From a virus (taxonomy: Duplodnaviria; Heunggongvirae; Uroviricota; Caudoviricetes): a DNA stretch of 4,414 nucleotides. How positions within the stretch are numbered: the stretch's first letter is position 1; each line of letters begins with the position of its first letter. The position numbers and the translations under genes are program-made. The notes below the pieces were generated by a model. That model was not told where the DNA came from and ran no database searches. It saw only the letters and a list, made by a program, of their open reading frames with translations. The stretch is taken from the IMG/VR virus record IMGVR_UViG_2698536337_000012; one strand, written 5' to 3'. Shown one piece after another: positions 1,816 through 3,152 of the stretch.

Positions 1816-2010
1816 ATGCCAGAGAACAACAGCAGAAAACCGGATAAAAGTGCAACAGTGCACATAGACGCCGGAACTATGGAGAAGCTCGAACGCTATC
1901 AGCAGTTCATTAAAAGTCATCACCCTGGAATGCCAGTACCCACGAAAGGGCAGATTGCGAGAAGCGCGGTTGAATACTGGTACAGGGCAACGTTAGGAGC
2001 CTGGCTATGA
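1816..2010 (+). CDS. Small protein, 64 aa, with a ribbon-helix-helix-like pattern; possible DNA-binding regulator
   Basis: GGAGG at 1804-1808 lies 7 nt upstream of ATG 1816, preferred over the in-frame ATG at 1783, which lacks an RBS. Predicted beta-strand (TVHIDAG) followed by two helices is typical of Arc/MetJ/CopG-type proteins. Stop TGA 2008-2010 overlaps the protease ATG 2007 (ATGA). The frame is open back into the gap, so a longer N-terminus cannot be excluded. Confidence 0.45.
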   Translation: MPENNSRKPDKSATVHIDAGTMEKLERYQQFIKSHHPGMPVPTKGQIARSAVEYWYRATLGAWL

Positions 2011-3152
2011 AAACATGGTTTTCCATTAAGGCTATGGCTGATGTTGTACATGTACGCATTTATGACGAGATCGGCGGGTACGGTGTAAAAGCATCGGCAC
2101 TTACTGACGAGATCAACGCGTGCGGTAATGTGCCTGAAATCCATCTTCGCATCCATTCACCTGGTGGCGACATCTTTGAAGGGCTGGCTATCTATAACGC
2201 CCTGAAAAATCATCCGGCAAAGAAAATTGTACACATTGAAGGCATGGCGGCTTCTATGGCCTCGTTTATTGCCATGTGTGGCGATCACATCGTTATGCCT
2301 GAAAACGCGATGATGATGATACATGCCCCCCGTGGTGTTACTGCCGGAGTGTCGGGCGACGTTCGCCGCTTTGCTGACCTGATGGACAAGCTGGGCGACA
2401 CGATGGCGGAAACCTACGCCGGAAGAACGGGCAGGAGCAAACAGGAAATCACCGCCATGATGGAGGCGGAAACCTGGATGGATGGCAATGAGTGTAAGGC
2501 TAATGGCTTCGCAGATGAGGTTATACCCGCGATTACAGCAATGGCCAGAATTGAATCAAAACGAATCGGAGATTTTTCGAATATGCCGGAAAATATTAAA
2601 AGCATGATCAGCCAGAAAACTGGCAGCGGAGAACAGGAACGACTCAACGGGATACGTGAATTGTTTGGCACGTTCAATGGAAGATATAACGACCTGGCTA
2701 TAAGTTGTCTTGCTGATTCAGGCTGTAGCGTTGAGGATGCACGCGAACGCCTTTTACTCACTATGGGTAAAGAATCGACACCGACAAACAAAACCACCCC
2801 CGCAAATCTTTACTACGCGTACACGGATAACGGCAACATAACCGGCGATGCAATGCGTCAGGGGCTTAATGCGCGTCTGGGACATGAACAGGCAGAACGC
2901 GGCAACCCTTACGCCATGATGAGCCTTTTCGATATGGCACAGGCATCATTAACCCATCGCGGCATAAGCACAGGCAGCTACAGCACACGCTCGCAGATAG
3001 TAAACGCGGCATTCACCCACAGCAGCAGCGATTTTACTTATATCCTTGCTGGTGGTGCTGAAAAATCCGTGAACACAGCGGCGAAACGTTCCGCCAGTGG
3101 ACGAAAAAAGGTTCATTGTCAAACTTCCATGAGGCACGTCGTGTTGGCCTGA
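2007..3152 (+). CDS. Prohead (head-maturation) protease, ClpP-like serine peptidase (S14 family), with a ~190-aa C-terminal extension (scaffold-like or capsid N-terminal region)
   Basis: G-M-A-A-S-M-A with putative catalytic Ser83 (codon 2253-2255) and M-I-H-A-P with putative His106 (codon 2322-2324) match the ClpP G-x-A-A-S-M-G and M-I-H-Q-P motifs with similar spacing. The ORF continues ~190 aa beyond the protease domain and ends at TGA 3150-3152, overlapping the next ORF. Confidence 0.85.
   Translation: MKTWFSIKAMADVVHVRIYDEIGGYGVKASALTDEINACGNVPEIHLRIHSPGGDIFEGLAIYNALKNHPAKKIVHIEGMAASMASFIAMCGDHIVMPENAMMMIHAPRGVTAGVSGDVRRFADLMDKLGDTMAETYAGRTGRSKQEITAMMEAETWMDGNECKANGFADEVIPAITAMARIESKRIGDFSNMPENIKSMISQKTGSGEQERLNGIRELFGTFNGRYNDLAISCLADSGCSVEDARERLLLTMGKESTPTNKTTPANLYYAYTDNGNITGDAMRQGLNARLGHEQAERGNPYAMMSLFDMAQASLTHRGISTGSYSTRSQIVNAAFTHSSSDFTYILAGGAEKSVNTAAKRSASGRKKVHCQTSMRHVVLA
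3104..3110 (+). other. Candidate -1 ribosomal slippery heptamer A_AAA_AAG, in phase with the protease ORF
   Basis: Protease-frame codons are CGA(3102-3104) AAA(3105-3107) AAG(3108-3110). A -1 slip continues in the capsid frame at GGT 3110-3112, reading ...SGRKK-GSLSNFHEARR.... Identical heptamer to the dnaX and IS911 shift sites. Confidence 0.4.

What the first reader, a model, noticed from the sequence alone, without database searches (positions are those of the whole stretch)
2007..3152. ClpP-like prohead protease carrying a ~190-aa non-protease C-terminal extension
Catalytic Ser and His motifs fall in the first ~110 residues and the protease domain probably ends near residue 180-190. The remaining ~190 residues (about 2570-3150) lack protease motifs and are Ser/Thr/Gly/Asn-rich. 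They could be an in-frame scaffold domain, a delta-like domain, or the true N-terminal part of the capsid protein if protease and capsid form one fused polypeptide. Which it is determines how the shell is assembled and processed.
Basis: inference. Interest (0 to 1): 0.45.

Follow-up and report, generated by a model that had tools for sequence, protein, structure and literature searches.

The report
Frameshift-broken protease–scaffold–capsid fusion gene
The "protease with a long tail" is the front two-thirds of a known one-piece phage head gene (protease + scaffold + coat protein) that a 13-base deletion has split in a decaying phage-satellite island of Shigella sonnei, so it is an ordinary pseudogene and not a new kind of protease.

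Summary
The 381-codon ORF at 2007-3152 is real. It has a ClpP-type protease domain (aa ~15-175, Ser83/His106/Asp170) followed by ~200 non-protease residues. Its 3' end is an artefact. Compared with an otherwise identical Shigella sonnei allele (626 aa) and with 143 E. coli genomes in which the full-length homologue is annotated as one CDS, the window lacks 13 bp at 3070/3071. That shifts the reading frame. Residues 356-381 are out-of-frame junk, and the rest of the gene continues in the -1 frame (3062-3874, listed as a 252-aa ORF).

The intact gene belongs to NCBIfam NF045540, [quoted passage not shown], the family I take to include the fused head gene of phage Gifsy-2. The extension therefore consists of:
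- a helical, scaffold/delta-like middle region (aa ~176-330);
- the first ~25 residues of a Mu-gpT-like coat domain;
- a frameshift tail.

The gene lies in a PICI-type satellite between cspD and clpS. In Ss046 that island also carries IS insertions. The A_AAA_AAG heptamer at 3104-3110 is a coincidence.

One side lead concerns the whole family. An invariant internal Met193 is preceded by a codon-constrained GAGGA/GGAGA, which suggests a nested scaffold-coat product as in lambda C/Nu3. Interest is low and the kind is already known.

The parts
2007..3152 (+). Frameshift-truncated 381-codon ORF. It is the 5' fragment of a protease-scaffold-capsid fusion gene.
   Evidence: ORF list. NF045540 scores 442.7 bits, below the 475 cutoff, for this fragment alone. 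Residues 1-355 are identical to the intact 626-aa S. sonnei allele P0123.
2007..2531 (+). ClpP-like prohead protease domain (aa 1-175). Catalytic Ser83 is at 2253-2255, His106 at 2322-2324 and Asp170 at 2514-2516.
   Evidence: Pfam PF00574 and NF045542. pLDDT is ~85-94. Foldseek matches ClpP structures over ~165-170 residues. The triad is invariant in alignment A3 and at least 90% conserved in A2.
2532..2996 (+). Middle region (aa 176-330): a helical, scaffold/delta-like linker between the protease and the coat domain.
   Evidence: No Pfam family matches. It is conserved within PHROG 133 and the fusion family. Predicted helices 195-256 and 278-337 have pLDDT ~60-78, and aa 258-277 form a low-confidence loop.
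2568..2585 (+). SD-like GGAGA (2568-2572) plus the invariant internal ATG of Met193 (2583-2585). This is a candidate nested start for a scaffold-coat product.
   Evidence: Met193 is invariant in the 33 aligned homologues and present in all 41 correctly aligned unique viral loci; the 42nd, the Ralstonia phage, was misaligned in that pairwise analysis. Codon -5 is GAG in 19/19 Glu cases, against 0.07-0.69 GAG in the other 21 conserved-Glu columns. Function is inferred.
2997..3071 (+). First ~25 residues of the coat (Mu-gpT-like, HK97-type) domain, still in frame (aa 331-355, includes the FTHSSSDF motif).
   Evidence: Pfam Phage_capsid_4 starts at aa 331 of the re-joined product. A profile match to solved Mu-gpT-domain capsid proteins puts chain residue 80 at about aa 420.
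3070..3071 (+). Junction of a 13-bp deletion (GCTTGCCGGATGG in the intact S. sonnei allele). It removes Leu-Ala-Gly-Trp and shifts the frame.
   Evidence: Alignments to E. coli L001 and S. sonnei L011. Gly358 and Trp359 are invariant or nearly invariant in the family.
3072..3152 (+). Out-of-frame tail (aa 356-381 plus stop). It is not homologous to anything.
   Evidence: Frame comparison.
3062..3874 (+). Remainder of the coat-protein coding sequence in the -1 frame. It is listed as a 252-aa TTG ORF at 3116-3874.
   Evidence: Pfam Phage_capsid_4 profile positions 43-262 only (E 1.5e-49). NF045540 positions 400-650. 267 of 270 residues are identical to the C-terminus of P0123.
3104..3110 (+). 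A_AAA_AAG heptamer in phase with the truncated ORF. It looks like a -1 slippery site but is judged coincidental.
   Evidence: Phase check. The same bases encode Thr-Lys-Lys-Gly in a different phase in intact alleles. There is no downstream structure (z = -0.56).
3876..4010 (+). Terminator-like hairpin plus a cos-like element downstream of the capsid gene. A second copy lies after the SSB gene, inside the N-masked stretch.
   Evidence: Direct repeat of ~82% identity. It matches the right genome end of phage mEp213 and intergenic DNA of CP-1639 and Stx phages.
1783..2010 (+). 75-aa ORF overlapping the fusion gene start (ATGA). Conserved satellite/phage protein of unknown function.
   Evidence: phrog_4934, E 1.3e-46. 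Present upstream of the fusion gene in all related islands.

Best explanation
The ORF is the 5' fragment of a pseudogenised 'tripartite' phage head gene.

Intact gene (626 aa in other S. sonnei strains, 629 aa in E. coli): one polypeptide carries three parts.
- A ClpP-type prohead protease, aa 1-175.
- A helical scaffold/delta-like region of ~155 aa.
- A Mu-gpT-like, HK97-type major capsid domain from about aa 331.

Inferred mechanism, by analogy with phage Gifsy-2: precursors co-assemble into a procapsid with protease and scaffold inside. The protease then removes itself and the scaffold, leaving the ~300-aa coat domain.

In this window a 13-bp deletion at 3070/3071 removes four conserved residues (LAGW) and shifts the frame. 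Translation from 2007 ends at 3152 after 26 nonsense residues. The remaining 267 coat codons are stranded in the -1 frame with only a TTG as a possible start codon and no ATG.

Context: the gene sits in a PICI-type phage satellite (integrase, AlpA, primase, SSB, capsid gene, cos-like site) inserted between cspD and clpS of Shigella sonnei. In Ss046 the island is also hit by IS elements. The locus is therefore best read as genome decay, not as a functional protease with a novel extension.

Shown here: the ORF, the domains, the deletion, the intact allele and the context. Inferred: the assembly and cleavage mechanism, and loss of function.
For: Frame and domains:
- The ORF and its downstream partner lie in frames 0 and -1.
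- The partner matches only positions 43-262 of the capsid profile.
- The re-joined product scores 822.6 bits on NF045540 (cutoff 475). Each fragment alone falls below the cutoff.

Deletion:
- 143 E. coli complete genomes carry the full-length homologue at ~90% identity; every listed hit is annotated as a single fusion CDS. The 202 genomes that match the junction segment at >=80% coverage show no sign of the 13-bp gap: each of the 12 listed spans 363 nt for 350 query nt.
- The global alignment shows one 13-bp gap at 3070/3071.
- S. sonnei itself holds an intact 626-aa allele (P0123, 113 contigs). It is identical to ORF residues 1-355 and to the -1 frame from EHSGETF to the end.
- At DNA level, window 1771-4414 differs from the intact island L011 by two intergenic SNPs plus the 13-bp gap.
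- The truncated protein occurs on at least 1000 contigs, including the complete genome CP000038.1, so this is not a sequencing error.

Family and fold:
- The deleted Gly358 and Trp359 are invariant or nearly invariant in the family.
- Full-length fusions occur in bona fide phages (82 records, e.g. CP-1639 and Pseudomonas phage CF140a).
- The island gene is 51% identical end to end to the 675-aa fusion gene of a lambdoid prophage.
- Gifsy-2 is described as having fused prohead protease and coat genes (PMC12315714; Effantin et al. 2010 as cited).
- The protease fold is confined to ~170 residues.
- The coat domain is related to solved Mu-gpT-domain capsid proteins (E 1.3e-10).

Decay context:
- In L002/L003 the primase is split by an IS and an IS1 lies next to the integrase. 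The island in L011 is intact.
Against: - No expression or protein data are available. The 381-aa fragment keeps a complete protease, a complete middle domain and a good SD, so it could still be made and do something.
- The deletion allele is by far the commoner one in sequenced S. sonnei (at least 1000 contigs against ~117). Clonal expansion would explain this, but so could selection.
- The capsid part of the AlphaFold model was of low confidence. The HK97-type fold therefore rests on Pfam, NCBIfam and PDB sequence profiles, not on a structural match.
- The maturation cleavage site was not located.
Confidence: 0.93

Rival explanations
1. The 381-aa ORF is a genuine stand-alone protease-scaffold gene of the lambda C/Nu3 or P2 gpO type, followed by a separate capsid gene. 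This is how Ss046 was annotated ('putative protease/scaffold protein' plus 'prophage protein').
For: Source annotations use that name. PHROG 94 and PHROG 53, annotated 'head maturation protease', align past the protease domain to about aa 292-296. Protease-scaffold fusions exist in other phages (general knowledge).
Against: The downstream ORF lacks the first 42 profile positions of the capsid domain and has only a TTG start. The last 26 residues match nothing. The same-species intact allele differs only by 13 bp. All full-length relatives examined are single ORFs.
Confidence: 0.02
2. Programmed -1 ribosomal frameshifting at A_AAA_AAG (3104-3110) re-joins the two frames. The locus would then still make some full-length protease-scaffold-capsid protein alongside the 381-aa product.
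For: The heptamer is in the X_XXY_YYZ phase of the truncated ORF. It lies between the -1-frame stop (3059-3061) and the 0-frame stop (3150-3152). A_AAA_AAG is intrinsically shifty in E. coli (dnaX and IS elements; general knowledge).
Against: The phase exists only because of the deletion. In intact alleles the same bases are read ACG AAA AAA GGT. No downstream hairpin stands out from shuffles (z = -0.56). The product would replace LAGWEHSGETFRQWT, which holds six invariant or nearly invariant residues, with unrelated sequence.
Confidence: 0.03
3. The truncated protease-scaffold protein has been retained as an anti-phage interference factor. It would enter or poison procapsids of Gifsy-2/mEp213-type lambdoid phages through its scaffold and N-arm segment.
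For: The protease and middle domain are intact and the SD is good. The deletion allele predominates. Satellite capsid homologues can interfere with helpers: SaPIbov5 Ccm, as cited in PMC6092414. The island's cos-like site and capsid gene match that phage type.
Against: Deleting the capsid homologue of the model island EcCICFT073 did not relieve interference (PMC6092414). In Ss046 the island is otherwise decaying through IS insertions. S. sonnei is clonal and rich in pseudogenes, so allele frequency is not evidence of selection.
Confidence: 0.04

Closest known systems
[quoted passage not shown] 2010, Virology 402:355) and NCBIfam NF045540 'ClpP-like prohead protease/major capsid protein fusion protein' / PHROG 133
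   Same: Same order of parts: N-terminal ClpP-type protease, central region of ~150-200 residues, C-terminal coat domain in one ORF. The re-joined window product scores 822.6 bits on NF045540. It is ~51% identical over its full length to lambdoid-prophage versions.
   Different: In this window the ORF is split by a 13-bp deletion. The satellite version lacks the ~34-residue Pro/Ala-rich linker found in the phage versions. It sits in a satellite without portal or terminase genes, not in a phage head operon. I did not compare it with the Gifsy-2 sequence itself.
Lambda gpC/Nu3 (protease with a nested scaffold gene) and P2 gpO
   Same: A ClpP/S49-superfamily protease is followed in frame by a scaffold segment. 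The invariant Met193 with a constrained upstream GAGGA/GGAGA suggests a nested start right after the protease, as for Nu3 (the comparison with lambda rests on general knowledge).
   Different: In lambda the coat protein gpE is a separate gene. The nested start here is only inferred.
HK97 gp5 delta domain
   Same: A helical N-terminal extension of the coat protein that acts as a built-in scaffold and is removed by the prohead protease. This is the most likely working analogy for aa ~176-330.
   Different: No detectable sequence similarity (no Pfam hit). The HK97 protease (gp4) is a separate gene of a different protease family.
Capsid genes of Gram-negative PICIs (e.g. EcCICFT073 c1499) and helper-embedded PICIs
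   Same: Same island layout (int, alpA, primase, late-zone capsid gene, cos). A capsid gene is present in 21 of 29 reference PICIs (PMC10111431; PMC6092414). In L001 and L005 the island abuts a truncated terminase gene of a prophage, as in helper-embedded PICIs.
   Different: The role of these satellite capsid genes is unknown, and in the one case tested the gene was dispensable for transfer. I could not confirm whether c1499 is the fused type (retrieved the wrong region).

Membership tests
NF045540 / Gifsy-2-type protease-scaffold-capsid fusion | N-terminal ClpP-like prohead protease domain with a Ser-His-Asp triad | tested here: met
   PF00574 E 3.7e-33 and NF045542 at 202.9 bits against a cutoff of 120. 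Ser83, His106 and Asp170 are present and conserved. ClpP fold confirmed.
NF045540 / Gifsy-2-type protease-scaffold-capsid fusion | Central non-protease, non-capsid region of ~150-200 residues | tested here: met
   aa 176-330 align across the family and to PHROG 133 positions 249-369. The region is predicted helical.
NF045540 / Gifsy-2-type protease-scaffold-capsid fusion | C-terminal major capsid domain in the same reading frame as the protease | tested here: not met
   In the window the capsid domain is split between frame 0 (aa 331-355) and frame -1 (3062-3874) by a 13-bp deletion. The feature is met in the intact S. sonnei allele P0123. The window holds a pseudogene of the family.
NF045540 / Gifsy-2-type protease-scaffold-capsid fusion | Whole-protein score above the curated cutoff (475 bits) | tested here: inconclusive
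   The 381-aa ORF scores 442.7 bits and the 252-aa ORF 368.8 bits, both below the cutoff. The re-joined product scores 822.6 bits, above it.
NF045540 / Gifsy-2-type protease-scaffold-capsid fusion | Autoproteolytic release of the mature coat protein during procapsid maturation | not testable with these tools
   This needs protein chemistry. The cleavage site was not identified. The low-confidence loop at aa 258-277 is only a guess.
HK97-fold / Mu-gpT-like major capsid protein | Sequence or structure match to the HK97-type coat fold | tested here: met
   Phage_capsid_4 E 1.2e-51 and Mu-like_gpT E 2.7e-10. The profile hits solved Mu-gpT-domain capsid chains 8rkx and 8rkc at E 1.3e-10. The AlphaFold model of this part was too poor for a fold match.
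Gram-negative PICI (phage-inducible chromosomal island) | Integrase, AlpA, primase/replication module and late-zone genes in one direction, ~10-12 kb, at a fixed chromosomal site | tested here: met
   The intact island L011 holds int, AlpA, DUF4222, a 596-aa primase, SSB, the 626-aa fusion gene and a 93-aa ORF between cspD and clpS.
Gram-negative PICI (phage-inducible chromosomal island) | Carries the helper phage's cos site | tested here: inconclusive
   Window 3876-4010 matches the right genome end of mEp213 and pre-terminase intergenic DNA of CP-1639 and Stx phages. Cleavage was not shown.
Gram-negative PICI (phage-inducible chromosomal island) | Helper-induced excision, replication and packaging | not testable with these tools
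   Experimental. In Ss046 the primase is IS-disrupted, so mobility is doubtful.
Stand-alone protease-scaffold gene plus separate capsid gene (lambda C/Nu3-E type) | A complete, independently initiated capsid gene downstream | tested here: not met
   The downstream ORF starts at profile position 43 of 262 with a TTG.
Programmed -1 frameshift site (dnaX / IS3 type) | Slippery heptamer in phase, flanking stimulators, and conservation in homologues | tested here: not met
   The heptamer is in phase. There is no significant downstream structure. The phase is created only by the deletion, since intact alleles read the heptamer in another phase.

The most novel reading that the evidence does not exclude
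The whole fusion family, including the ancestor of this gene, may make two products from one ORF:
- the full protease-scaffold-coat chain;
- from an internal start at the invariant Met193 (window 2583-2585), a nested scaffold-coat chain without the protease.

The candidate ribosome-binding site is a codon-constrained GAGGA/GGAGA 10-11 nt upstream of that ATG. This would parallel lambda C/Nu3 and would set the protease-to-coat ratio in the shell.

In the deleted S. sonnei allele the two leftovers (381-aa protease-scaffold and 189-aa scaffold fragment) could still bind procapsids of helper-type phages.
Probability: 0.35. Interest if true: 0.4.

Novelty: already known. Interest (0 to 1): 0.17.

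Why it matters
It matters mainly for annotation. The two S. sonnei ORFs, named 'protease/scaffold protein' and 'prophage protein' in public records, are one broken gene. They should not be read as a protease with a novel C-terminal domain.

The locus dates a very recent inactivation, because the intact and deleted alleles differ by 13 bp and nothing else within the gene. It also illustrates satellite decay in Shigella.

The only forward-looking element is the family-wide hint of a nested scaffold-coat start. If real, it would explain how a gene that fuses one protease to every coat subunit avoids packing hundreds of proteases into each procapsid.

Tried and rejected
- Slippery-site reading. 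A_AAA_AAG at 3104-3110 first looked like a dnaX-type -1 frameshift joining the two ORFs. I rejected it because the real frame break is 33 nt upstream, the heptamer is out of phase in intact alleles, and no downstream structure exists.
- Sequencing error. Rejected because the exact truncated protein is on at least 1000 contigs, including a finished genome.
- Full-length AlphaFold model. The protease and the helical middle were usable, but the coat half had pLDDT below 50. No structural test of the HK97 fold was possible. Foldseek returned only ClpP.
- Pfam search of the middle region alone: no family even at E <= 10.
- Rfam scan of the locus, including the stretch masked in the window: only a sub-threshold microRNA hit, taken as chance.
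- The Gifsy-2 paper itself is not held. I relied on how other papers cite it and on memory for its details.
- Search for EcCICFT073 c1499 in CFT073: I guessed the coordinates and retrieved a lambda-like prophage at icd instead. Not pursued.
- Literature searches for 'protease-capsid fusion' wording found nothing relevant.
- SD strength at Met193 by duplex energy alone is unremarkable (median in the top ~8% of in-frame positions). The case for a nested start rests on codon constraint, not on SD strength.
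Full report
**Observation**

The window has an ATG-to-stop ORF exactly at 2007-3152 (381 aa), with an AGGAG 7 nt upstream of the ATG.
- Pfam CLP_protease covers aa 44-173 (E 3.7e-33). NCBIfam NF045542 'head maturation protease, ClpP-related' covers aa 15-172.
- The catalytic motifs are GMAAS (Ser83), MIHAP (His106) and GFADE (Asp170). They are colinear with the ClpP triad, judged against the E. coli ClpP sequence from memory. They are invariant in the 30-sequence alignment A3 and at least 90% conserved in the 33-sequence alignment A2.
- Residues 181-381 hold no protease motif and are richer in S/T/G/N (34% against 22%).
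- The AlphaFold model of the 90%-identical E. coli homologue has a confident protease domain (pLDDT ~85-94). It matches solved ClpP over only ~165-170 residues.

The next ORF (3116-3874, 252 aa, TTG start) lies in the -1 frame. It matches Pfam Phage_capsid_4 only from profile position 43 to 262.
- Joining the two frames gives a product that scores 822.6 bits on NCBIfam NF045540, 'ClpP-like prohead protease/major capsid protein fusion protein' (cutoff 475). Each fragment alone falls below the cutoff.
- 143 complete E. coli genomes carry the full-length homologue at ~90% identity, and every listed hit is annotated as a single fusion CDS (629 aa in L001).
- A global alignment shows one frame-breaking difference: 13 bp are missing from the window at 3070/3071.
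- The 202 E. coli genomes that match the junction segment at >=80% coverage show no sign of this gap: each of the 12 listed spans 363 nt for 350 query nt.

**Source and polarity**

- The exact 381-aa protein is encoded in Shigella sonnei, including the finished genome Ss046 (CP000038.1), and on at least 1000 contigs.
- The same 90% cluster holds a 626-aa S. sonnei protein (P0123, 113 contigs). It is identical to residues 1-355 of the ORF and to 267 of the 270 residues of the -1 frame. It differs only by the four residues LAGW and the frame.
- At DNA level, window 1771-4414 differs from the intact island in CP032523.1 (L011) by two intergenic substitutions plus the 13-bp gap (GCTTGCCGGATGG).
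- The missing residues include Gly358 and Trp359, which are invariant or nearly invariant in the family.

The event is therefore a recent deletion in one S. sonnei lineage. It is not an insertion elsewhere and not a sequencing error. Residues 356-381 of the ORF are out-of-frame and match nothing.

**What the extension is**

Three lines place the start of the coat domain at about aa 331-341.
- Pfam Phage_capsid_4 begins at aa 331 of the re-joined protein.
- A profile of the post-protease region hits solved Mu-gpT-domain capsid proteins (8rkx, 8rkc; E 1.3e-10). Chain residue 80 aligns to about fusion residue 420.
- Those solved proteins are ~302-305 aa long, which matches aa ~331-626.

The 206-residue extension is therefore made of three parts.
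- A middle region of ~155 aa (176-330). It has no Pfam family, is conserved across the fusion family and PHROG 133, and is predicted as a set of helices with a low-confidence loop at 258-277.
- The first ~25 residues of the coat domain.
- 26 nonsense residues.

By position and helical character the middle region is the counterpart of a scaffold or delta domain. That role is inferred.

**Relatives**

- Full-length fusions occur in bona fide phages. 82 phage records hold most of the query, for example CP-1639 (51%) and Pseudomonas phage vB_Pae_CF140a (46%).
- About 1,670 of the 1,752 matching records do not hold most of the query, and those listed align only to the protease part.
- The island's gene is 51% identical end to end to the 675-aa fusion gene of a lambdoid prophage in S. 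sonnei. It lacks a ~34-residue Pro/Ala-rich linker found there.
- Gifsy-2 is the studied example. Its prohead protease and coat genes are fused (PMC12315714; Effantin et al. 2010, cited). From memory, that paper describes a ClpP-type N-terminus, a ~200-residue central domain with a possible scaffolding role, and cleavage that releases the coat protein. I could not read it.

**Context**

The intact island (L011) lies between cspD and clpS. It reads integrase, AlpA, several small ORFs, DUF4222, a 596-aa primase, an 81-aa ORF, SSB, a 64/75-aa ORF, the fusion gene and a 93-aa ORF, mostly in one direction.
- This is the layout of Gram-negative PICIs. These commonly carry a capsid gene (21 of 29 reference islands), and in the model island the gene was not needed for transfer or interference (PMC10111431; PMC6092414).
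- In Ss046 the primase is split by an IS and an IS1 sits beside the integrase. The window starts in the primase fragment downstream of that IS.
- The capsid gene's frameshift is thus one of several lesions in a decaying satellite.

**Rivals**

- A natural protease-scaffold gene followed by a separate capsid gene is excluded by the incomplete downstream ORF and by the intact allele.
- A programmed -1 frameshift at A_AAA_AAG (3104-3110) is in phase. But the phase exists only because of the deletion, no downstream structure stands out (z = -0.56), and the product would lack six conserved residues.
- A retained interference function for the truncated protein cannot be excluded. It has no positive support beyond allele frequency in a clonal species.

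**Side lead on mechanism**

- Met193, the first Met after the protease domain, is invariant in the 33 aligned homologues, down to 27% identity. It is present in all 41 correctly aligned unique viral loci; the 42nd, the Ralstonia phage, was misaligned in that pairwise analysis.
- 10-11 nt upstream there is always GGAGA, GAGGA or AGGAG, although the encoded residues differ (GD, EE/ED, QE).
- Among 22 gene clusters sharing fewer than 15% of their 11-mers, codon -5 is GAG in 19 of 19 Glu cases and GGA in 2 of 2 Gly cases. Gene-wide usage is 0.365 for GAG and 0.095 for GGA.
- In the other 21 conserved-Glu columns GAG makes up 0.07-0.69. The adjacent codon -4 is GAA in 14 of 15 cases. Neighbouring codons vary synonymously.
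- The SD strength itself is only in about the top 8% of in-frame positions.

This pattern suggests nucleotide-level selection for an internal ribosome-binding site. That would give a nested scaffold-coat product as in lambda C/Nu3. It is a hypothesis about the family and does not change the verdict on this window.

**Verdict**

The locus is a frameshift pseudogene of a known, curated family in a known kind of satellite. Novelty: already known. Interest: low.

Noticed in passing
window 3876-4010; second copy at L003 9340-9470 (inside the window's N run 1258-1709): A ~110-bp direct repeat (~82% identity) flanks the 75-aa ORF plus capsid-gene module. Each copy is a terminator-like hairpin followed by CTCCTGGTGGGGGNGGCCTGTCCACGGGGCGGG...GCGGAAAAA. 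The window copy matches the right genome end of phage mEp213 and pre-terminase intergenic DNA of CP-1639, VT1-Sakai and Stx2 phages. It is probably a cos-type packaging site, so the island would have two.
   Followed up: partly
window 2568-2585 and homologous positions in L015-L094: An invariant internal Met193 is preceded by a codon-constrained GAGGA/GGAGA (GAG in 19/19 cases at codon -5, GAA in 14/15 at codon -4). This may be a nested start for a scaffold-coat product across the whole fusion family.
   Followed up: partly
window 1258-1709 and 1745-1770: The two N runs do not match the real sequence length. From the SSB stop to the fusion ATG is 769 nt in the window but 660 nt in Ss046 and in L011. 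The 26-N run sits between a duplicated 'TA'. This looks like masking or gap filling, not biology.
   Followed up: partly
window 255 (primase C-terminal fragment, ORF 1-270): There is a one-base insertion (A) relative to the intact primase gene of L011. It alters the last few codons and is a second small lesion in the same island. In Ss046 the primase is also split by an IS just upstream of where the window starts.
   Followed up: no
L001 8797-13605 and L005 4801-9602: In E. coli 2014C-4423 and in one S. sonnei draft the island's right end abuts a terminase gpA gene lacking its N-terminus. Portal and a 675-aa phage fusion gene follow. This is the 'helper-embedded PICI' layout described in PMC10111431. 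In Ss046 and L011 the same island sits directly between cspD and clpS.
   Followed up: no
L049, L050 (IMG/VR contigs): Two viral-database contigs carry the same 381-codon truncated allele. The deleted island has therefore been binned as 'viral' in IMG/VR.
   Followed up: no
window 574-819, 1783-2010, 4133-4414: Three small ORFs match PHROG families of unknown function almost end to end (phrog_1231, phrog_4934, phrog_1561; E 1e-46 to 1e-53). They are conserved satellite/phage genes with no assigned role.
   Followed up: no
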